Shown here: one piece after another, positions 5,584-15,073 of the stretch
Position numbering within the stretch: the stretch's first letter is position 1
Layout of the letters: each line of letters opens with the position of its first letter
IMG/VR virus record: IMGVR_UViG_2698536647_000012
Length of the DNA stretch: 18,232 bases
Direction: 5' to 3' (one strand)
Origin: a virus
Lineage: Duplodnaviria > Heunggongvirae > Uroviricota > Caudoviricetes
Made by a program: the position numbers and the translations under genes
Notes under the pieces: generated by a model
Database searches by the model: none
What the model saw: the letters and a program-made list of their open reading frames with translations, nothing else
What the model was told of the DNA's origin: nothing

Positions 5584-6365
5584 GCTGCCACCTTCTGCTC
5601 AGTGGCTTTCTGTTTCAGGAATCCAATAGCTTTCACTGCTTCGGCCTGTGTCAGTTCTGACGATGCGCGAATGTCGCGGCGAAATATCTGGGAACAGAGC
5701 GGCAATAAGTCGTCATCCCATGTTTTATCCAGGGCGATCAGCAGAGTGTTAATCTCCTGCATGGTTTCATCGTTAACCGGAGTGATGTCGCGTTCCGGCT
5801 GACGTTCTGCAGTGTATGCGGTATTTTCGACAATGCGCTCGGCTTCATCCTTGTCATAGATACCAGCAAATCCGAAGGCCAGACGGGCACACTGAATCAT
5901 GGCTTTATGCCGTAACATCCGTTTGGGATGCGACTGCCACGGTCCGGTGATTTCTCTGCCTTCGCGGGTTTTGAATGGTTCGCGGCGGCATTCATCCATC
6001 CACTCGGTAACGCAGATCGGATGATTGCGGTCTTTGCGGTAAATCCGGCATGTGCAGGATTCGTTGTCCTGTTCAAAGTCCATGCCGTCAAACTGCTGGT
6101 TTTCGTTGATGATGCGGGACCAGCCATCAACGCCCACCACCGGAACGATGCCGTTCTGCTTATCAGGGAAGGCGTAAATTTCTTTCGTCCACGGATTAAG
6201 ACCGTACTGGTTGGCGACGATCAGCAATGCGATGAACTGCGCATCGCTGGCATCACCTTTAAATGCCGTCTGGCGAAGAGTGGTGATCAGTTCCTGTGGG
6301 TCGACAGAATCCATGCCGACTCGTTCAGCCAGCTTCCCTGCCAGCGTTGCGAGTGCTGTACTCAT
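5580..6365 (-). CDS. bet: Lambda Beta single-strand annealing protein (Red-beta)
   Basis: 261-aa ORF recognised as lambda Bet. Confidence 0.95.
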
Positions 6366-6370
6366 CCGTT

Positions 6371-6667
6371 TTATACCTCTGAATCAATATCAACCTGATG
6401 GTGAGCAATGGTTTCAACCATGTACCGGATGTGTTCTGCCATGCGCTCCTGAAACTCAACATCGTCATCAAACGCACGGGTAATGGCTTTTTTGCTGGCC
6501 CCGTGGCGTTGCAAATGATCGATGCATAGCGATTCAAACAGGTGCTGGGGCAGTCCTTTTTCCATGTCGTCTGCCAGTTCTGCCTCTTTCTCTTCACGGG
6601 CGATCTGCTGGTAGTGACGCGCCCAGCTCTGAGCCTCAAGACGATCCTGAATGTAATAAGCGTTCAT
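6371..6667 (-). CDS. gam: Gam (RecBCD inhibitor), 98-aa form
   Basis: Translation matches the lambda Gam short form ([21 protein letters not shown]...). Reading upstream in frame by hand gives a stop with no intervening Met, so only the short form is encoded. Confidence 0.9.
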
Positions 6668-6742: not shown

Positions 6743-7033
6743 TTAGTGATTGAGGCCGTTACCGCGTCCGTCGAGAAAAACTTCCACGAGCAAATCACGG
6801 GTATAAGTGCGCTCGATGCCGCGATGCAGATAAAGCCGTCCGCGTAAATTAGCTGATGCAGTCCAGGTACCATCTTTGTGTTTGACCAGCATGCCTGGCA
6901 TGACCGCACCGCGATTAACGGTCTGCGTTCCGTAATGTTGATGAACCATAAAAACTCCTGCCCGTAAGCTGGGCTGCTGAACATATAGAGACTTCTGCGC
7001 GTATTCAGGCGGTGGATGGCCGCCGGTTGTCAT
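6743..7033 (-). CDS. Hypothetical protein, first gene downstream of pL (ATG-start version of track ORF 6743..7153)
   Basis: The track ORF starts with TTG at 7153. The first ATG (7033) has a GAGG-type SD upstream and gives a 96-aa product ([13 protein letters not shown]...). No family recognised. It occupies the N/kil/cIII position. Confidence 0.4.
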
Positions 7034-7170
7034 AACTAAGCCGCCTCGTTGAAGCGACTGAGGTATAAAGTGTTGTGTTGATTTCAGCTGGTCACACCGA
7101 CGTTCACGCGTCCGTTTCACCCCTCGCACTCCCCGAAGCCTGCTGAAATTCAAACTGCGGATCTAAGCGG

Positions 7171-7222
7171 TCATCGCAACGGTGAAACAGGTGGTTACCG
7201 TATCGTTGTGTCGTTGCGATGA
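7171..7222 (-). promoter_or_regulatory. Compound inverted repeat at the 5' end of the predicted pL transcript (outer stem TCATCGCAACG/CGTTGCGATGA, nested ACGGT/ACCGT)
   Basis: 11-bp outer inverted repeat with a nested 5-bp repeat and reiterated CAACG/CGTTG and CATCGCA motifs, just downstream of the predicted pL start. Confidence 0.4.
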
Positions 7223-7226
7223 ATTT

Positions 7227-7255
7227 ATTTAAAACTATAGTTGTTTTATCGTCAA
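7227..7255 (-). promoter_or_regulatory. pL candidate (minus strand: -35 TTGACG, 17-bp spacer, -10 TTAAAT)
   Basis: Minus-strand sequence gttgttgacgataaaacaactatagttttaaat is nearly identical in architecture to the pR candidate on the other side of the repressor gene. Confidence 0.55.
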
Positions 7256-7290
7256 CAACAAAAGTTGTTTTATCGGTTGTTTTAAATATA
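7236..7290. promoter_or_regulatory. OL operator cluster (reiterated GTTGTT/AACAAC half-sites, e.g. GTTGTTTTATCGTCAACAACAAAAGTTGTTTTATCGGTTGTTTT)
   Basis: Several direct and inverted copies of the hexamer GTTGTT overlapping the pL candidate; the same half-site forms the palindrome at OR. Confidence 0.55.
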
Positions 7291-7394
7291 ACTGGTTGTA
7301 TTTAGGATGGATTTATTTTGTGACTTGCATCGCATAGCGATAACTGAAGTGAGGTGTGGTGGTTTTTTGGACGGTATGAGTTATGAGGGGGAGG

Positions 7395-7421
7395 AAAAGA
7401 AAACCCGGCGCGGTTGCCGGG
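7395..7421 (-). terminator. Intrinsic terminator of the repressor-lipoprotein transcript (CCCGGC-gcggtt-GCCGGG then T-rich on the minus strand)
   Basis: 6-bp GC stem 9 bp downstream of the lipoprotein stop, followed on the minus strand by TTTTCTTTTCC. Confidence 0.6.
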
Positions 7422-7429
7422 TATGATTA

Positions 7430-7810
7430 TCAGTCAGCCCAACCTGATTTCGAGTTTATTTGGGTTTCTGACATTGTGTATTTCTTAATCGTGTCATCGT
7501 TAAAAAGAATAGTAAGTTCTTTTTTCGTACCGTTCGTTCCATTATGGAATAATCCATAGAATGGAATAAAAGTGGTGCCATTAACTTTTACTTTTGCAAA
7601 GGCGTACTTCCAGATCTCGTTTCCACTGTCAGTATATGAAACAGCATCAGGAGAACCAAAGTAAGATTTAACCTCATTCTTGGTTGTTTTACCTTCCTGA
7701 AGTTTAGACTGGACACTAATTTCAGTTTCATTTTTGAGTTGCTGGTTGCCTGAAGAAGCACACCCAGCCAATACAGATGCCATCATGGCAGCGATTAGGA
7801 TTTTTCTCAT
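7430..7810 (-). CDS. Lipoprotein (signal peptide plus lipobox LAGC), accessory gene in the rex position downstream of the repressor gene
   Basis: 126-aa ORF, N-terminus MRKILIAAMMASVLAGCASS. Same strand as and downstream of the repressor gene, so it would be expressed in the lysogen. Mature part loosely resembles small BamE/SmpA-like lipoproteins; not verified. Confidence 0.7.
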   Translation of the reverse strand: MRKILIAAMMASVLAGCASSGNQQLKNETEISVQSKLQEGKTTKNEVKSYFGSPDAVSYTDSGNEIWKYAFAKVKVNGTTFIPFYGLFHNGTNGTKKELTILFNDDTIKKYTMSETQINSKSGWAD

Positions 7811-8039
7811 TTTATGTTTCCATTCATTATAACCAGAAACATCTTAACATAATGATTCGAAATAAAAACCGCTACGAGATAGGGGGACATTTTGCTGACA
7901 GTAGCAACAAATCTCAGCTAACAACGAGAATATTTACTGAAATATGCAAACAGATTTGGCGTTCTTATAGAGAATTTAGTGCAATATCTAATCCGAGTGG
8001 TATAAATCTTAACCTTCGCTCCCTTAAGTCGTAGATAAA

Positions 8040-8729
8040 TTAACCATGCTTCCTGTACGTCTGCGGCATGCTTCCAATGACCTTACCGAATATGAACACC
8101 CGGTTCATCTCGTCTTTCTCGATCGGGTCCCACGGCGAGTAGCTCTTGTTATCAGAGATAACCAGCAGCTTATCCTTCATCATTTGAAGACGTTTTACAT
8201 GGGCAGTGTCGTCGTACAGAAACGCATAGATGCCATCACCGTCGAAAGATTTAACAGTGATATCAACGAACAGCAGGTCACCTGGTTCGATCGTCCCTGA
8301 CATGCTGTCACCTCGCACGTTAATGATGCGGATATTTTCCGCCTTCCTGCCATCGAACATGTGACGAGCATCGTCAAACGAGTACTCAACCGAGCGTAGA
8401 ACTTCTACAAACTCACGGTTGATTACACCTGGCCCGGCACTGACTTCTATATCAAGAACGTCAATTTTGAAGTATTTGGAATGGCTGACAGTTGATTGTA
8501 TTGGTTGCACTGTACTGTCTGACATATTTCCAACGCCAGAAGATAACCATTCTGCGCGTACACCCAAAGCGTTCGCGATCTCCACGATTTTAGTTGTTTG
8601 GTTAGCTTTCCCTGTTTCGATTTTCTGAATAGCAGCCTGGCTAACCCCGACCAAATCCCCAAGCGCCTTTTGTGTAAGGCCTCGCGCTAATCTGGCTTCT
8701 TTAAGTCTTTCTGAGAGTGTTGTTTTCAT
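8040..8729 (-). CDS. CI-type prophage repressor (N-terminal XRE HTH plus C-terminal S24 LexA-like autopeptidase)
   Basis: 229-aa ORF. HTH segment (LTQKALGDLVGVSQAAIQKIETGK). S24 catalytic motif GDSM (VRGDSMSGTIEPGDLLFVD) and a downstream Lys (AHVKRL). Divergent from the cro-like gene across an operator/promoter region. Confidence 0.9.
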   Translation of the reverse strand: MKTTLSERLKEARLARGLTQKALGDLVGVSQAAIQKIETGKANQTTKIVEIANALGVRAEWLSSGVGNMSDSTVQPIQSTVSHSKYFKIDVLDIEVSAGPGVINREFVEVLRSVEYSFDDARHMFDGRKAENIRIINVRGDSMSGTIEPGDLLFVDITVKSFDGDGIYAFLYDDTAHVKRLQMMKDKLLVISDNKSYSPWDPIEKDEMNRVFIFGKVIGSMPQTYRKHG

Positions 8730-8770
8730 AGATCAAATGTACAACCAAGGTTTTATTTCATCAAACGAAA

Positions 8771-8806
8771 ATGGTTGTTGACTAAAAACAACCATAGTTT
8801 TAATCT
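8771..8806 (+). promoter_or_regulatory. OR/pR: palindromic operator ATGGTTGTTGACTAAAAACAACCAT overlapping -35 TTGACT, 17-bp spacer, -10 TAATCT
   Basis: Perfect 25-bp palindrome with GTTGTT/AACAAC half-sites covering a near-consensus sigma70 promoter aimed at the cro-like gene (start 8834, SD GGAGG). Confidence 0.65.
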
Positions 8807-8833: not shown

Positions 8834-9064
8834 ATGAACCCAGCAATCAAAACAGCGATCAATATCGTTGGTTCACAAAAGAAACTAGGCGATGCCTGCG
8901 AAGTTTCACAGCAGGCCGTCTATAAGTGGCTTCACAACAAAGCAAAGGTATCCCCTGAACATGTCGGCAGCATTGTTACGGCTACTGGTGGAGTTGTGAA
9001 GGCATACCAGATTCGCCCGGATCTTCCGAAGTTGTTTCCACACACCGAAAAGAACGCAGCTTAA
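8834..9064 (+). CDS. Cro-like HTH regulator of the YdaS family
   Basis: 76-aa ORF (MNPAIKTAINIVGSQKKLGDACEVSQQAVYKWL...), first gene of the rightward operon with a strong SD; resembles Rac-prophage YdaS-type Cro proteins. Confidence 0.75.
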   Translation: MNPAIKTAINIVGSQKKLGDACEVSQQAVYKWLHNKAKVSPEHVGSIVTATGGVVKAYQIRPDLPKLFPHTEKNAA

Positions 9065-9133: not shown

Positions 9134-9673
9134 ATGCAACCACTTACATACCAACAGACTAGCGGATTTATTCCGACTGCGGTGATAAATCGTTCTCAAA
9201 CAAAACAAGCTCCAGGCCACGAAAAAATCCGTGATGCCGTCCGCGCCTGGTCGGCTGTAGATAATCAGGATGTCGTTGCCGCACTCATTGTGAATGAGTA
9301 TCGGGAGCAGGGCGACGGCACCATCGATTTCCCTGATGATGTCAGCCGTGCACGCCAGAAGCTGTTCCGCTTCCTCGATAACAAATTCGATTCTGAAAAA
9401 TACCGAAATAACGTGCGTGAACTGACCCCGGCAATTCTGGCGGTACTACCGCTGGAATATCGCGGTTACCTGGTTGAGCAGGATAGCTTCATGGTTAGGT
9501 TGGCTGAAATGGAAAAGGAACTCAGTGAGGCAAAACAGGCTGTCATTCTCAACGCACCACGCCACCAGAAACTGAAGGAAATTAGTGAAGGTATTGTGTC
9601 GATGTTTCGTGTGGACCCAGATCTGGCTGGTCCATTGATGGCGATGGTTACTACCATGCTGGGGGCGATATGA
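9134..9673 (+). CDS. YdaT-like protein in the cII position
   Basis: 179-aa ORF with good SD (AAAGGAG). Central segment (ELTPAILAVLPLEYRGYL) resembles Rac-prophage YdaT, which follows the YdaS-type Cro. Confidence 0.6.
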   Translation: MQPLTYQQTSGFIPTAVINRSQTKQAPGHEKIRDAVRAWSAVDNQDVVAALIVNEYREQGDGTIDFPDDVSRARQKLFRFLDNKFDSEKYRNNVRELTPAILAVLPLEYRGYLVEQDSFMVRLAEMEKELSEAKQAVILNAPRHQKLKEISEGIVSMFRVDPDLAGPLMAMVTTMLGAI

Positions 9674-11887: not shown

Positions 11888-11916
11888 TTGACAATTGTTA
11901 CTGAGTCTTGTAAGAA
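11888..11916 (+). promoter_or_regulatory. Candidate sigma70 promoter for the NACHT NTPase gene (-35 TTGACA, 17-bp spacer, -10 TAAGAA)
   Basis: Consensus -35 hexamer with 17-bp spacing to an A/T-rich -10-like hexamer in the AT-rich leader. Confidence 0.35.
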
Positions 11917-11951
11917 TGCACCACGTATTGGTTAATGAATGTGGTGAAAAA

Positions 11952-13847
11952 ATGGATGAGTTTCTTGCGACTATTATTAATAGCACAGTAGGAAAAGCTG
12001 CGGAAAAAATAACAGAAGTATTGCTCTCTAAACCTTGGGCTAGGGACCTAGATGAAGGCAAGGTTATACTCGAACAATTAAATGATCCCCTCGGAAGAGA
12101 AAATTATTTAAGAAAGCATGTGCTACCATCTCTGAAAATGAGAACTTTGCACAACGCTGATTATGATATTTTTTTAGATGATATTTATTATCCGTTAACT
12201 GTTGAGGTGGCATCTAATAAAGACAAGGTCGTTATAAAAGATGGGGTCACTTTACCATTTCATGGTATTGTAAATATAGTCGGTATAGCGGGGCAAGGGA
12301 AAAGTACTATTTTACGCAAGTTGTTTAGCGAGGAAATAAAAAAATCAGAACGGATGCCTTTTTTTATTGAATTAAGAAGGGTGAAGAATGCAAATATTAT
12401 TGCTTATCTGGCAGACATTCTTAATTCATTTGGTGTGGGGTGTTCAGAGGATAGCTTGAAAATATTACTGCAATCCCAAAGAGTCGTTTTAATGTTGGAT
12501 GGATTTGATGAGGTTAAACATGAAGAGCGAACTATGATGATGAATGAAATAAAAAACATTCATTATCATTTTAACACACCAATTATCGCAACAACGAGAC
12601 CAAATACAGATATATGTTATACTACTGATGTGTATAATATTTTTATAGATAAGCTAAATATTTCTGATAAGATTTGTATTCTTCATTCTTTATCGAAAAA
12701 TGACAGATTCTCAAGTAGTGATGCCTCGTTTAAAGTCTTGGCGGATTTACTATGTGATAAAGAAGAACTTGAGGGAACTATTTGCAATCCAATTTTAGTT
12801 ACTCTTTTGTATTATTGTTATCCTTATATGAATGATATTCCAAATAATATAATAGAGTTTTATCGAAGCCTCTTTGACACCTTATATGCAAGGCATGATA
12901 AAATAAAAGTATATACGCGCGAGAAAAAATCAAACATTATTGGTGAAAAAGCTAAATTGTGTTTTTCAGCTATTTGCTATAACGCACTGATTGAGGAGAA
13001 ATTTGAGTTTTGGGGAGAGGAGTTGCTTAGATATGCTGAAGATGCTATTGAAACAGAAGGTTATCTTAAAGAAGATGCATCAAACTTTATAGATGATCTT
13101 ATTGAGATAACTTGCCTTATCCAACCTGAGGGAAATAATAGGTATGTTTTTCTGCATAAATCAGTGCAAGAATTTTATGCTGCTTTTGCGGTAGCAAATT
13201 TACCGATTGAGTATAAAAAAGATATATACGAAAATCTTATGGTGGCTATTAAATGCTCTGAACAGTTAGATAACTTCATGTTGTTTTTACATTCACTAGA
13301 TTCCAAAGCATTTATAGATGAAATCACAATAAAAGCTTCTCGTGATATGGGGGTTGTAGATGTCGCAAACATGACGAGAGAGAGAGTTGAGAATGTTTTT
13401 GACTCGGCACTAAGTAGAGTATTTATCAAAGGCAACTCGACATCGAATGACTCAGTGATTTCGCTTCATTACGACTTTGTATTAGGTTCGCTCTTAGGTA
13501 TTGATATTCTACCTATAATGTCTGGAAAAGAACGAGTTCCTATGACAGAAATTGATTTGATTTTTGACGACCTTTTTTCATGCACGATGGATAAGGGTGA
13601 GTTAAACTTATACAAATTTGAAGTTAAAAAACAAAAAAATAATATTGATACTGATGTTCAGACTGATGATTATTTATTTCCCTTGGTGGATTATCTTAAG
13701 GTCAGGGGGGTTTATGGTTTGATGCTGGATACTTACCATCAGACAATTAAGGATTTTTATGATAGATATTATCAACCAGCTTATGATTCGAATCTTCGAA
13801 GAACACTAGCAATGGGAAGAAATTTCAAGTTAAAGAAAAATAATTAA
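11952..13847 (+). CDS. NACHT-type STAND NTPase (bacterial NLR-like protein), candidate anti-phage defence protein
   Basis: Walker A GIAGQGKST; Walker B of the NACHT type (VVLMLDGFDEV); sensor-1-like IIATTRP; NPxL-type segment (CNPILVTLL); winged-helix signature YVFLHKSVQEFYAAF. Start placed at the second in-frame ATG (MDEFLAT...); the track ORF begins at a TTG at 11895. Sits in a visibly AT-rich island. Confidence 0.85.
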   Translation: MDEFLATIINSTVGKAAEKITEVLLSKPWARDLDEGKVILEQLNDPLGRENYLRKHVLPSLKMRTLHNADYDIFLDDIYYPLTVEVASNKDKVVIKDGVTLPFHGIVNIVGIAGQGKSTILRKLFSEEIKKSERMPFFIELRRVKNANIIAYLADILNSFGVGCSEDSLKILLQSQRVVLMLDGFDEVKHEERTMMMNEIKNIHYHFNTPIIATTRPNTDICYTTDVYNIFIDKLNISDKICILHSLSKNDRFSSSDASFKVLADLLCDKEELEGTICNPILVTLLYYCYPYMNDIPNNIIEFYRSLFDTLYARHDKIKVYTREKKSNIIGEKAKLCFSAICYNALIEEKFEFWGEELLRYAEDAIETEGYLKEDASNFIDDLIEITCLIQPEGNNRYVFLHKSVQEFYAAFAVANLPIEYKKDIYENLMVAIKCSEQLDNFMLFLHSLDSKAFIDEITIKASRDMGVVDVANMTRERVENVFDSALSRVFIKGNSTSNDSVISLHYDFVLGSLLGIDILPIMSGKERVPMTEIDLIFDDLFSCTMDKGELNLYKFEVKKQKNNIDTDVQTDDYLFPLVDYLKVRGVYGLMLDTYHQTIKDFYDRYYQPAYDSNLRRTLAMGRNFKLKKNN

Positions 13848-14029: not shown

Positions 14030-14281
14030 ACGATTTTTTACATTCGGTGTTTTACTTCGACAGCCAGAATTGGGAGTCTCTATTCGTCTGGCGGCTAAAG
14101 GTGATATGGAAATCGTTATGTTTTGGCCTGAGGTAGTTGTAACTGTTGTAGCAGCTATGGCTGTGATCATCATGGTGTCCATTTACTGGGGTTGACGACA
14201 TGATTTATCTGGGGATATATTCTGTGCGTTGCCGCAAAATCGGCACACGGGATTGGCGTCCCGGAATACTACTCAACGCAT

Positions 14282-14303
14282 ACCGCGTTAAGCGGTTTTT
14301 TTA
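14282..14303 (+). terminator. Candidate intrinsic terminator (ACCGC-gttaa-GCGGT then T7)
   Basis: 5-bp stem and 5-nt loop followed by TTTTTTT on the plus strand, upstream of the Roi-like gene. Confidence 0.4.
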
Positions 14304-14458
14304 TGCGCTAAGCACGGCTACGCCCAAATTATGGTGGGCTGTGTGAGGGCTTCTTCGGGAGCGCCGGATTTGAGTAGCCGGTTACGCCAACCTTGCACAG
14401 TTCACCACCAGTCGATTGGCGTCGTTGGTGGTGATGGTTAACCTGATGAGGTGAAACT

Positions 14459-15073
14459 ATGACTACTCAATTAGCATTCCACAAAACGACGTTTACCCCA
14501 ATTTGCCACAATAACAGAATTTGGCTTACTGCCACTGAAGTTGGTTTAGCTCTGGAATATGCGGACGATAAAGCAGTTCAGCGCATTTACTCTCGTCACT
14601 CAGATGAATTTACAGATATGATGACAAGGGTGGTCAAAGTGACCACCCCTCGTGGAATGCAGGACTCTCGAGTATTTAGCCTTCGCGGAGCCCATTTGAT
14701 CGCCATGTTTGCACGAACTCCTGTAGCCAAAGAGTTCCGCCGCTGGGTTCTGGATATTCTCGATCGAGAAGTTCAACAATCCCCGATCACAAAACAATTC
14801 ACTGATAACGAACTTTGCACACTTGCTTGGTTATGGCGAGCTGGGGATGCGATGTTAACCGCCTGCCAGAACGTTACTCCTCTTCTTCAGGTTGCGGAGC
14901 ATCGTGAAGCTGGTCGCTTCACTTCCATCGAGCAAGAATATCCCCAGATACTCACCAGAGCGCGAGCAATCCTCGCCAGAGAAACGGCACATGTAAAATT
15001 CCAGCCGTGGCAGGATGATAAGTGGAGTCGAGTATTGCCACATTTGCGTCAGAATGTTATTAAACAACGTTAG
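14459..15073 (+). CDS. Bro-N domain protein (Roi / antirepressor-like DNA-binding protein)
   Basis: 204-aa ORF with Bro-N-type N-terminal features (RIWLTATEVGLALEY..., ...FRRWVLDIL). SD GAGGTGA upstream. Position between the replication and nin genes, as for HK022 roi. Confidence 0.65.
   Translation: MTTQLAFHKTTFTPICHNNRIWLTATEVGLALEYADDKAVQRIYSRHSDEFTDMMTRVVKVTTPRGMQDSRVFSLRGAHLIAMFARTPVAKEFRRWVLDILDREVQQSPITKQFTDNELCTLAWLWRAGDAMLTACQNVTPLLQVAEHREAGRFTSIEQEYPQILTRARAILARETAHVKFQPWQDDKWSRVLPHLRQNVIKQR

What the first reader, a model, noticed from the sequence alone, without database searches (positions are those of the whole stretch)
7430..7810. Lipoprotein gene in the rex position, apparently co-transcribed with the repressor
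Seen in sequence: a 126-aa ORF with signal peptide and lipobox (VLAGC), directly downstream of and on the same strand as the CI-like repressor, ending at a clean intrinsic terminator (7395-7421). Established knowledge: in lambda the equivalent position holds rexA/rexB (exclusion of other phages), and other lambdoid phages carry lysogenic-conversion or exclusion genes there, including lipoproteins that block phage receptors. Inference: this is a lysogen-expressed envelope protein, a candidate superinfection-exclusion or conversion factor.
Basis: partly seen in the sequence, partly recalled or inferred. Interest (0 to 1): 0.5.

Follow-up and report, generated by a model that had tools for sequence, protein, structure and literature searches.

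The report
Prophage BamE-like lipoprotein beside the repressor
A lambda-like prophage in E. coli carries, in the slot where lambda keeps its rex exclusion genes, a small, strongly conserved outer-membrane lipoprotein shaped like the cell's BamE protein; it is a known but uncharacterised cargo gene of phages, plasmids and islands, and most likely blocks entry of foreign DNA, though nobody has tested this.

Summary

It is not BamE itself. It scores below the Pfam cut-off, has no counterpart of the BamE N-terminal segment, and carries a family-specific conserved 14-residue insert. It belongs to a catalogued, function-unknown family (PGAP "SEN1984 family lipoprotein", phrog_3135).

"Co-transcribed with the repressor" is only partly right. 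No terminator separates the gene from cI. However, it carries its own conserved extended -10 element (TGTTAAGAT, 7841-7849), which 50 of 78 distinct relatives share. Many relatives also have a terminator upstream of that element, so this is a classic moron.

Relatives recur at two prophage sites: after the repressor, and next to the tape-measure gene. They also occur in conjugative-plasmid tra regions and in the ROD21 island. The mature protein has dN/dS of about 0.04.

Exclusion of incoming DNA is the best-supported function but is untested. This is a solid finding of moderate interest, and a new member of a known kind.

The parts
7430..7810 (-). Coding sequence of the 126-aa lipoprotein (SEN1984 family / phrog_3135), including the stop codon
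   Evidence: ORF list and sequence. phrog_3135 at 2.9e-48 over the full length. The identical protein WP_001226568.1 is named 'SEN1984 family lipoprotein' or 'BamE' by PGAP. dN/dS is about 0.04.
7760..7810 (-). Type II (lipoprotein) signal peptide, residues 1-17. The lipobox L-A-G-C is encoded at 7771-7760. Cys17 would be the lipidated first residue of the mature protein. Ala at +2 (not Asp) predicts outer-membrane sorting.
   Evidence: Direct reading of the sequence. Cys17 is invariant and G21/N22 are nearly invariant across 70 diverse relatives. The signal peptide diverges (pN 0.25-0.43) while the mature part is conserved. Outer-membrane sorting follows from the established +2 rule and was not tested.
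7445..7723 (-). BamE-like (SmpA/OmlA) alpha-alpha-beta-beta-beta domain, residues about 30-122
7532..7582 (-). Family-specific aromatic insert between the first two strands (residues about 77-93, NGTTFIPFYGLFHNGTN). It is absent from BamE and is a candidate partner- or membrane-contact loop.
   Evidence: It aligns to a gap in BamE. F81, I82, P83, Y85, G86, F88, H89, N90 and G91 are invariant among 20 relatives from several genera, and the NFIP..LF..G pattern persists at 31-63% identity. Model confidence is lowest here (pLDDT 54-72). The functional role is inferred.
7393..7422 (-). Intrinsic terminator closing the unit: stem-loop 7422-7403 and T-tract 7402-7393, seven bases after the stop codon
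   Evidence: Terminator scan. A comparable hairpin plus T-tract follows the gene in most relatives, whatever their context.
7841..7849 (-). Conserved extended -10 promoter-like element TG-T-TAAGAT, 39 nt upstream of the ATG. The predicted transcription start is near 7834, and a GGAA Shine-Dalgarno-like sequence lies at 7821-7818.
   Evidence: The motif TGnTAnnnT lies 38-46 nt from the ATG in 50 of 78 distinct gene copies. The background chance of finding it in a 15-nt window is about 1%. Homology to other loci begins exactly here. No transcript mapping is available, so promoter activity is inferred.
7850..8039 (-). Lineage-specific AT-rich spacer between the repressor stop and the moron's promoter element. 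It contains no terminator and no recognisable gene or RNA.
   Evidence: No similarity to any other fetched locus beyond the E. coli lineage. No terminator-like site. No Rfam family at the gathering thresholds. Folding energy is unremarkable, z = -0.92.
8040..8729 (-). CI-type repressor (HTH_3 + Peptidase_S24, 229 aa), upstream neighbour on the same strand
   Evidence: Pfam and PHROG matches. Annotated as cI in PhiR26_1.
7227..7285 (-). OL/PL: three AAAACAAC-containing operator repeats overlapping a PL-like TTGACG (7255-7250)-N17-TTAAAT (7232-7227). This marks the left border of the immunity region.
   Evidence: Repeat finder and pattern count: 19-nt arms at 7229-7247 and 8785-8803 are 95% complementary. 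The promoter hexamers were read directly.
8719..8803 (.). OR operators between cI and cro (cro is at 8834-9064, + strand). This marks the right border of the immunity region.
   Evidence: cro is annotated in PhiR26_1.

Best explanation
The gene is a self-contained accessory unit (a moron) carried in the immunity region of a lambda-like prophage integrated at the lambda attachment site next to ybhC.

Shown:
- It encodes a lipoprotein precursor with a canonical lipobox.
- Its mature part has a BamE-like two-helix, three-strand fold plus a conserved aromatic insert.
- It is under strong purifying selection.
- It is bracketed by a conserved promoter-like extended -10 element and an intrinsic terminator.
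- Close relatives are cargo of prophages (after the repressor, or next to the tape-measure gene), phage-plasmids, conjugative-plasmid tra regions and the ROD21 island.

Inferred:
- It is made in the lysogen, from its own promoter and possibly also by read-through from the repressor promoters.
- It is lipidated at Cys17 and sorted to the periplasmic face of the outer membrane.
- There it acts as a small binding or blocking protein on a conserved envelope component, most plausibly the periplasmic side of an outer-membrane barrel protein. This is how BamE binds BamA and how the BamE-like domain of TpgA binds its autotransporter barrel.
- The result is that incoming DNA-transfer machines (phage tails, possibly conjugative pili or T4SS) cannot complete entry.

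On this reading it is a superinfection/entry-exclusion factor that works like T5 Llp or phi80/N15 Cor, but it is unrelated to them and to Rex. The confidence given (0.4) is for the exclusion mechanism; the anatomy (real lipoprotein gene, BamE-like fold, rex position, moron structure) I hold at about 0.9.
For: Anatomy:
- ORF, lipobox and terminator.
- Operators on both sides.
- Low-GC island.
- Conserved extended -10 and upstream terminators in relatives.

Fold:
- pLDDT 85.6.
- hhalign 91%.
- TpgA's BamE-like domain is described as likely binding the AtaA barrel (bioRxiv 10.64898/2026.01.22.700529).

Selection: dN/dS about 0.04 in the mature part, with a divergent signal peptide.

Context:
- All 10 places shown for two homologues in Citrobacter and Enterobacter genomes and assemblies place it downstream of a repressor. 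Repressor types differ among the Citrobacter places.
- Of 77 IMG/VR loci, 50 have a repressor upstream within 1-3 ORFs and 23 lie in the tail module next to the tape-measure gene.
- The tape-measure genes belong to at least three families.
- A myovirus-type phage-plasmid carries it in the same slot.
- 139 plasmid records carry a relative, 103 of them conjugative. One Burkholderia glumae plasmid was inspected, and there the gene lies in the tra region after traH.

Both prophage sites are known homes of lysogen-expressed exclusion genes. The repressor-PL interval holds rexAB and bstA (PMC7067206). The tape-measure-adjacent slot holds HK97 gp15 (my knowledge of Cumby et al. 2012; not re-read here).
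Against: - No phenotype is known for any member. Nothing was found in the held literature, and there is no PADLOC match.
- The mature protein is 71-85% identical across genera and across prophages with different tails. Receptor-specific blockers such as Cor or Llp usually track a particular receptor-binding protein. This gene is not linked to J or tail-fibre genes.
- Distant members (about 29-42% identity) in Neisseria, Limibaculum, Desulfovibrio and others sit in ordinary chromosomal neighbourhoods such as ATP synthase genes and carbonic anhydrase. This suggests an ancestral housekeeping envelope role.
- Promoter activity, lipidation and outer-membrane location are all predictions.
Confidence: 0.4

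Rival explanations
1. Lysogenic-conversion or envelope-fitness factor. The lipoprotein modulates outer-membrane protein assembly or envelope robustness in the lysogen, acting on or beside the BAM complex like BamE, or as a stress lipoprotein like OsmE. It would benefit the host (serum, bile, detergent or antibiotic tolerance, or handling of the prophage's own barrel proteins) rather than excluding phages.
For: - The near-identical phage PhiR26_1 carries several outer-membrane cargo genes that need BAM: an OmpD/NmpC-like porin, Lom and an omptin, plus the lipoprotein Bor.
- Very high cross-genus conservation fits a conserved host target.
- Chromosomal, non-mobile homologues exist in distant bacteria.
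- The family name comes from a gene of the Salmonella virulence island ROD21.
Against: - The BamE N-terminal stretch (RPDINQGNYL) has no counterpart. From memory of Knowles et al. 2011, that stretch carries contacts to BamD.
- The score is below the Pfam BamE cut-off.
- The linkage to porin, Lom and omptin genes is specific to this phage. It is not seen in the Citrobacter and Enterobacter prophages.
- The recurrent placement beside DNA-delivery genes (tape measure, tra) is not explained by a general fitness role.
Confidence: 0.25
2. Periplasmic immunity or inhibitor protein. The BamE/BLIP-type fold is used to bind and neutralise an incoming periplasm-acting toxin or enzyme (a bacteriocin, a T6SS effector, or a phage or plasmid lytic transglycosylase), protecting the carrier cell.
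For: - Membrane-anchored BamE-like proteins are described as the most widespread immunity proteins for lipid-targeting polymorphic toxins (PMC12419801).
- In a phage-plasmid the gene lies two genes upstream of a tape-measure protein with a lytic transglycosylase domain.
Against: - No toxin or effector gene is adjacent in the window or in the prophage relatives.
- Those immunity proteins are described as rapidly evolving, whereas this family shows dN/dS about 0.04.
Confidence: 0.12
3. It is simply a second copy of the housekeeping BAM subunit BamE, as many RefSeq records name it.
For: PGAP labels the identical protein 'outer membrane protein assembly factor BamE' in most of the 78 genomes. The fold match is to BamE.
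Against: - Pfam score is below the gathering threshold.
- Only 22-23% identity to BamE.
- Missing N-terminal segment and an extra conserved insert.
- Newer PGAP runs rename it 'SEN1984 family lipoprotein'.
- It is prophage cargo present in only 1.4% of E. coli genomes.
Confidence: 0.03

Closest known systems
SEN1984 family lipoprotein (Salmonella Enteritidis island ROD21) / PHROG 3135
   Same: This is the family the gene belongs to: a full-length match to phrog_3135. PGAP gives this name to the identical protein. SEN1984 is a 378-nt gene, and Phyre2 likewise predicted a BamE-like fold for it.
   Different: SEN1984 sits in an excisable, mobilisable island next to mob and pilus genes, not in a prophage immunity region. 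Neither has a tested function.
E. coli BamE (SmpA/OmlA; Pfam PF04355), subunit of the beta-barrel assembly machine
   Different: Identity is 22-23%, and the score is below the Pfam cut-off. BamE residues about 29-38 have no counterpart. A 14-residue conserved aromatic insert is present. The gene is mobile-element cargo rather than a core gene.
Lambda rexA/rexB, and other cargo of the repressor-PL interval such as BstA of Salmonella prophage BTP1
   Same: Same genomic slot: downstream of the repressor on the same strand, inside the immunity region, closed by a terminator before OL/PL. The slot is a recognised moron site, and bstA is transcribed from the cI promoter (PMC7067206).
   Different: No sequence or architectural similarity. 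Rex and BstA are cytoplasmic or inner-membrane abortive-infection systems, whereas this is a single exported lipoprotein. It also carries its own promoter-like element.
Receptor-blocking exclusion lipoproteins: T5 Llp and Cor of phi80/N15/HK022/mEp phages
   Same: These are small outer-membrane lipoproteins made by a resident phage that block entry by acting on an outer-membrane receptor. Llp sits in the inner leaflet of the outer membrane and binds FhuA (bioRxiv 10.64898/2026.03.26.714494). The mEp Lpp proteins exclude phages by receptor type (PMC11893012). This is the proposed mode of action here.
   Different: There is no homology: the Cor PHROG matches only the signal peptide at E 0.066. 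Those genes sit next to receptor-binding or structural genes, and they are shorter. No target or phenotype is known here.
HK97 gp15 moron (superinfection exclusion; my knowledge of Cumby et al. 2012)
   Same: About a third of relatives occupy the equivalent slot, between the tail chaperone and the tape-measure gene, as a promoter-gene-terminator insert.
   Different: gp15 is an inner-membrane protein, not a lipoprotein. Homology was not tested. The window copy is in the immunity region, not the tail module.
TpgA N-terminal BamE-like domain (Acinetobacter)
   Different: TpgA also has an OmpA-like peptidoglycan-binding domain, and it helps secretion of a partner adhesin encoded next to it. No such partner gene is present here.

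Membership tests
Bacterial lipoprotein (signal peptidase II substrate) | N-terminal signal peptide with positive n-region, hydrophobic core and lipobox [LVI][ASTVI][GAS]C | tested here: met
   MRK-ILIAAMMASV-LAGC. Cys17 is invariant in 70 relatives. The Pfam LPAM_1 match is weak (E 0.19).
Bacterial lipoprotein (signal peptidase II substrate) | Actual lipidation and cleavage by Lgt/Lsp/Lnt, and outer-membrane sorting by Lol | not testable with these tools
   Ala at +2 (not Asp) predicts outer-membrane sorting, but only by the +2 rule.
BamE (PF04355; BAM complex subunit) | Sequence match above the curated Pfam threshold | tested here: not met
   21.8 bits against a cut-off of 23.2. 58 of 70 relatives match at E <= 0.01, so this is superfamily-level homology only.
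BamE (PF04355; BAM complex subunit) | Alpha-alpha-beta-beta-beta fold | tested here: met
BamE (PF04355; BAM complex subunit) | N-terminal segment and surface residues that contact BamD/BamA | tested here: not met
   BamE residues about 26-38 align to a gap in the family profile. Which residues matter is recalled from the literature and was not re-read.
BamE (PF04355; BAM complex subunit) | Physical association with BamA-D and a core-genome location | tested here: not met
   The location is prophage cargo in 78 of 5426 genomes. Physical association is not testable here.
SEN1984 family lipoprotein / phrog_3135 | Full-length sequence match to the family | tested here: met
   phrog_3135 at 2.9e-48, residues 1-124 of 126. 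PGAP names WP_001226568.1 'SEN1984 family lipoprotein'. The NCBIfam release searched did not return that model.
Moron (independent accessory transcription unit in a phage genome) | Own promoter upstream and terminator downstream | tested here: inconclusive
   The terminator is present. The conserved extended -10 lies at a fixed distance in 50 of 78 copies, and relatives have upstream terminators. No transcription start has been mapped.
Moron (independent accessory transcription unit in a phage genome) | Deviant base composition, and presence/absence or different positions among related phages | tested here: met
   36-39% against 52% G+C. The same gene occurs after different repressor types, in tail modules, and in plasmids and islands.
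Moron (independent accessory transcription unit in a phage genome) | Expression from the repressed prophage | not testable with these tools
   No RNA data are available. No operator word lies near the promoter-like element.
Lambda Rex exclusion system | Homology to RexA/RexB (two-component, inner-membrane channel plus sensor) | tested here: not met
   It is a single exported lipoprotein with no PADLOC or PHROG match to Rex. Only the position is shared.
Cor/Llp-type receptor-blocking exclusion lipoproteins | Sequence relationship to Cor or Llp | tested here: not met
   phrog_1119 (Cor) at E 0.066, and only over residues 1-29, the signal peptide.
Cor/Llp-type receptor-blocking exclusion lipoproteins | Blocks adsorption or DNA entry of phages using a defined receptor | not tested
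   This needs plating and adsorption assays.

The most novel reading that the evidence does not exclude
Mobile elements of very different kinds (lambdoid prophages, myovirus-type phage-plasmids, F-type conjugative plasmids, the ROD21 island) share one BamE-derived outer-membrane lipoprotein. It docks, through its conserved aromatic insert, onto a universally conserved outer-membrane machine such as BamA/BAM or another essential barrel. In doing so it closes the envelope to incoming DNA-transfer devices in general. That would be a cross-element, receptor-independent exclusion principle that hijacks the BamE binding mode.
Probability: 0.15. Interest if true: 0.75.

Novelty: new member of a known kind. 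Interest (0 to 1): 0.4.

Why it matters
The interval between repressor and PL is where temperate phages keep genes that work for the lysogen. Several defence systems (Rex, BstA) were found there.

This family is abundant: 1796 cluster representatives, 135 viral contigs, 139 plasmid records and 1.4% of complete E. coli genomes. It is under strong purifying selection, and it is mislabelled as the housekeeping BamE in most RefSeq records, yet it has no assigned function.

If it is an exclusion factor, it would add a new structural class to the short list of outer-membrane exclusion lipoproteins (Llp, Cor, TraT). It would also show that a BAM-subunit fold has been recruited by mobile elements. The clean modular anatomy (promoter-like element, gene, terminator, about 470 bp in all) makes it directly clonable and testable.

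In practical terms, the RefSeq 'BamE' annotation should be read as 'BamE-like prophage lipoprotein'.

Tried and rejected
- A direct sequence search of the PDB with the single protein gave only a signal-peptide match to apolipoprotein E.
- The first structure model, from a shallow 20-sequence alignment, was poor (pLDDT 66). Its Foldseek hits were meaningless. It was replaced by the 70-sequence model.
- The search for related loci with the diverse alignment failed because no stretch was conserved enough. It was rerun with the close alignment.
- PADLOC returned no model.
- NCBIfam returned only weak signal-peptide-driven matches (Ag473, TrsH, YgdI/YgdR and others), all far below their cut-offs. 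I rejected these as family assignments.
- I considered whether the 229-nt spacer hides a gene or an RNA. There is no Rfam family at the gathering thresholds, the folding energy is ordinary (z -0.92), and there is no homology outside the E. coli lineage. The antisense ORF 7777-8034 and the ORF 7383-7559 overlap the gene or the terminator, and I regard them as spurious.
- I first took the large neighbours in the tail-module loci for the host-specificity protein J. Pfam and PHROG show they are tape-measure proteins.
- The simple sigma-70 scan found no -35/-10 pair upstream of the gene. The promoter proposal therefore rests on the conserved extended -10 only.
- Literature searches for SEN1984, the protein accession, BamE-like proteins and phage lipoproteins found no functional study. 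The 'PhiR26' hits were unrelated Pseudomonas phages.
- An early note that the window carries PD-lambda-1, as PhiR26_1 does, was wrong. The window has a NACHT-domain ORF there instead.
Full report
**1. What is in the sequence**

The window is E. coli chromosome: ybhC lies at 1-1284, followed by a tyrosine integrase. It carries a lambda-like prophage at the lambda attachment site.

On the minus strand, ORF 7430-7810 encodes 126 residues beginning MRKILIAAMMASVLAGC. This is a textbook lipoprotein signal peptide with lipobox LAGC. In a 70-sequence alignment of relatives at 31-63% identity, Cys17 and Gly52 are the only invariant columns.

Upstream on the same strand, 8040-8729 encodes an HTH_3 + Peptidase_S24 repressor. 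Seven bases after the lipoprotein stop codon lies a G+C-rich hairpin (7422-7403) followed by a T-tract.

The operator word AAAACAAC occurs 8 times in the window against 1.05 expected. Three copies cluster at 7240-7283 and two at 8719-8792. Nineteen-nucleotide arms at 7229-7247 and 8785-8803 are 95% complementary. The left cluster overlaps a PL-like TTGACG-N17-TTAAAT (7255-7227, read).

The lipoprotein gene therefore lies inside the immunity region, between cI and OL/PL.

**2. It is a real, constrained gene**

- The 671-nt stretch is 99.7% identical in Escherichia phage PhiR26_1 and in 78 of 5426 complete E. coli genomes.
- The word-index protein search found 228 homologues, most of them 126 aa, from Citrobacter, Enterobacter, Leclercia, Cronobacter, Kluyvera and others.
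- The exhaustive profile search found 1796 cluster representatives at E <= 1e-3.
- Among 20 relatives from several genera the mature part is almost invariant, while the signal peptide drifts.
- Nei-Gojobori estimates give dN of about 0.06-0.10 with saturated dS. dN/dS is about 0.04 for the 13 pairs where dS could be computed.

**3. What the protein is**

Pfam gives only a sub-threshold BamE match for the window protein (21.8 bits; cut-off 23.2). However, 58 of 70 diverse relatives hit BamE, the best at 4e-9.

With the 70-sequence alignment, AlphaFold2 gives a confident model (pLDDT 85.6). Comparisons of that model:

| Method | Result |
|---|---|
| Foldseek (PDB) | The nine best hits are all BamE chains in BAM complexes, but E-values are 0.02-0.07 and none reaches 0.001 |
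| hhalign, family vs E. coli BamE | 91% probability, E 1e-6, 23% identity |

The hhalign alignment also shows the differences. BamE's N-terminal stretch (about residues 26-38) has no counterpart. The family has a 14-residue insert (NGTTFIPFYGLFHN, residues 77-90) that is its most conserved motif and the least confidently modelled part.

PGAP now calls the identical protein 'SEN1984 family lipoprotein'. That name comes from a gene of the Salmonella Enteritidis island ROD21, for which only a Phyre2 BamE-like prediction exists. PHROGs files it as phrog_3135, function unknown. PADLOC has no match.

**4. How it is transcribed**

The gene and the 229-nt gap upstream are 36-39% G+C, against about 52% on both sides. 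No terminator-like site lies between cI and the gene, so read-through from the repressor promoters is possible.

However, similarity between the window's upstream DNA and other loci starts only about 45 nt before the ATG. It starts with TGTTAAGAT (7849-7841), which fits the extended -10 consensus TGnTAnnnT.

This motif lies 38-46 nt upstream of the start codon in 50 of 78 distinct gene copies. These include copies at 50% protein identity and copies in quite different genomic contexts. The background chance of finding it in such an interval is about 1%.

In several relatives an intrinsic terminator sits just upstream of the motif, for example in L003, L008-L011, L016, L024 and L025. Nearly all relatives have a terminator just after the gene. 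This is the anatomy of a moron: terminator, promoter, gene, terminator.

A distinct subgroup of about 14 distinct loci (for example L014, L015, L072-L078) lacks the motif. In these the gene follows the stop codon of a repressor closely related to the window's cI by about 45 nt, so those copies must be co-transcribed with the repressor.

The window copy has the motif and no upstream terminator, so both routes may operate. None of this has been checked by transcript mapping.

**5. Where relatives live**

- **Citrobacter and Enterobacter.** All 10 places shown for two homologues place the gene downstream of a repressor on the same strand. The Citrobacter repressors differ in type (155-, 240- and 251-aa). 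All five Enterobacter places have a 250-aa S24 repressor. Sometimes other genes intervene.
- **Species-representative genomes (35 loci).** Two positions recur: after the repressor, and inside the tail module next to the tape-measure gene.
- **IMG/VR viral loci (77 analysable).** 50 have a repressor upstream within 1-3 ORFs, 23 are in the tail module (mostly between the DUF6246 tail chaperone and the tape measure), and 4 are elsewhere.
- **Tape-measure genes.** They belong to at least three families. A myovirus-type E. coli phage-plasmid carries a 46%-identical copy in the equivalent slot, ahead of a lytic-transglycosylase-domain tape measure.
- **Plasmids.** 139 plasmid records carry relatives, 111 of them from Burkholderia and 103 predicted conjugative. 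One Burkholderia glumae plasmid was inspected, and there the gene lies in the F-type tra region after traH.
- **Distant members.** Copies at about 29-42% identity in Neisseria, Limibaculum, Desulfovibrio and others lie in ordinary chromosomal neighbourhoods.

**6. Most likely mechanism**

*Shown:* an exported lipoprotein precursor with a BamE-like domain, strong constraint, moron anatomy, and recurrent carriage by elements that move DNA across the envelope.

*Inferred:* expression in the lysogen, and an outer-membrane location (Ala at +2).

The fold class works by binding partner proteins in the periplasm:
- BamE binds BamA and BamD.
- TpgA's BamE-like domain is described as likely binding the barrel of its autotransporter.
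- BLIP inhibits beta-lactamase.
- BtiO and the lipocone-toxin immunity proteins neutralise effectors.

Both prophage positions are known homes of exclusion genes. The repressor-PL interval holds rexAB and bstA, and bstA is transcribed from the cI promoter in all conditions examined (PMC7067206). The tape-measure-adjacent slot holds HK97 gp15 (my knowledge). Resident-phage outer-membrane lipoproteins that block entry are well documented: T5 Llp on FhuA and the mEp Lpp proteins.

I therefore favour an exclusion factor that binds a conserved outer-membrane component from the periplasmic side, with the aromatic insert as the likely contact. My confidence in this mechanism is about 0.4.

Two observations keep the rivals alive: the protein is unusually conserved and is not linked to receptor-binding genes, and chromosomal homologues exist. 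The rivals are an envelope or BAM-related fitness factor (0.25) and a periplasmic immunity/inhibitor protein (0.12). A genuine second BamE is very unlikely (0.03).

**7. Comparison with known systems and novelty**

The gene shares only its position with Rex, only its proposed mode of action with Llp and Cor, and only its fold with BamE. It is a member of an already catalogued but uncharacterised family. The concepts involved (a moron in the immunity region, a prophage lipoprotein) are established, so I rate it a new member of a known kind.

What this analysis adds:
- confirmation of the fold;
- the conserved promoter-like element, and the coexistence of autonomous and cI-fused versions;
- the two-site distribution in prophages, plus plasmid and island carriage;
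- the family-specific insert;
- the point that 'BamE' in RefSeq is an over-annotation.

Interest is moderate (0.4): the family is abundant, cleanly testable and functionally blank, but nothing in it contradicts current understanding.

Noticed in passing
window 6743-7255 (minus strand): There is no separate N-type antiterminator gene between the PL-like promoter (about 7227-7255) and kil (6743-6949 as annotated in RefSeq relatives). The in-frame upstream extension of the kil ORF (to TTG 7153) contains an arginine-rich stretch, RLRGVRGVKRTRERR, reminiscent of N-protein RNA-binding motifs. Pfam finds nothing in it.
   Followed up: partly
window 11895-13847 (+): A 650-aa ORF with a NACHT/NB-ARC-type NTPase domain (Pfam NACHT 3e-11) lies downstream of the replication genes. 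This is a candidate bacterial NLR-like anti-phage defence gene. The otherwise near-identical phage PhiR26_1 carries PD-lambda-1 in this region instead, so it is a defence-cargo exchange site.
   Followed up: partly
window 14230-14412 (+), upstream of ORF 14459-15073: Rfam matches above the gathering scores to isrK (14230-14302) and C4 antisense RNA (14327-14412). They lie directly upstream of a Bro-N/P22_AR_C antirepressor-like gene. This looks like a P1/P7-type C4-ant secondary immunity module inside a lambdoid prophage.
   Followed up: no
L003, L008, L013, L016 and others, 15-25 nt upstream of the lipoprotein ATG; window 7835-7826: Most relatives have a perfect 10-bp palindrome, GATTGCAATC, between the extended -10 element and the ribosome-binding site. 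It could be a regulator-binding site. In the window it is replaced by GGTTATAATG, which creates a perfect TATAAT at 7831-7826.
   Followed up: no
L020, L095-L128 (tail-module loci), between the DUF6246 chaperone gene and the tape-measure gene: This slot is a multi-gene cargo island holding varied small exported proteins, several of them further lipoproteins (for example L028 +1, L096 +1, L109 +1, L128 +1). It also holds KilA-N/Bro-like and HNH genes. Different cargo genes are preceded by the same roughly 60-nt junction, which translates as LLLVALKPDISLLICPKPTSGDRDM. This suggests cassette exchange at a fixed joint.
   Followed up: partly
L003-L015, L021: 30-100 nt downstream of the lipoprotein gene, opposite strand: A conserved convergent ORF of 68-97 aa follows the lipoprotein gene in Citrobacter, Enterobacter and Pseudocitrobacter prophages. 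No full-length counterpart is present in the window. Only 46 nt after the terminator resemble L009 and L011. Its function is unknown.
   Followed up: no
PhiR26_1 (L048), late region: The near-identical phage carries an unusual load of envelope cargo: an OmpD/NmpC-like porin, Bor, Lom and an omptin protease. Together with the BamE-like lipoprotein, that makes five outer-membrane proteins from one prophage.
   Followed up: no
window 9134-9673 (+): The gene in the cII position is a YdaT_toxin-domain protein (Pfam 7.6e-30), although PhiR26_1 annotates it as cII. The same cro-YdaT pairing accompanies the lipoprotein in most Citrobacter and Enterobacter prophages.
   Followed up: no
L041 (Limibaculum MAG) 5986-6378: A distant family member (40% identity) sits between the ATP synthase gamma and beta subunit genes. 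This is an odd place for a lipoprotein gene.
   Followed up: no
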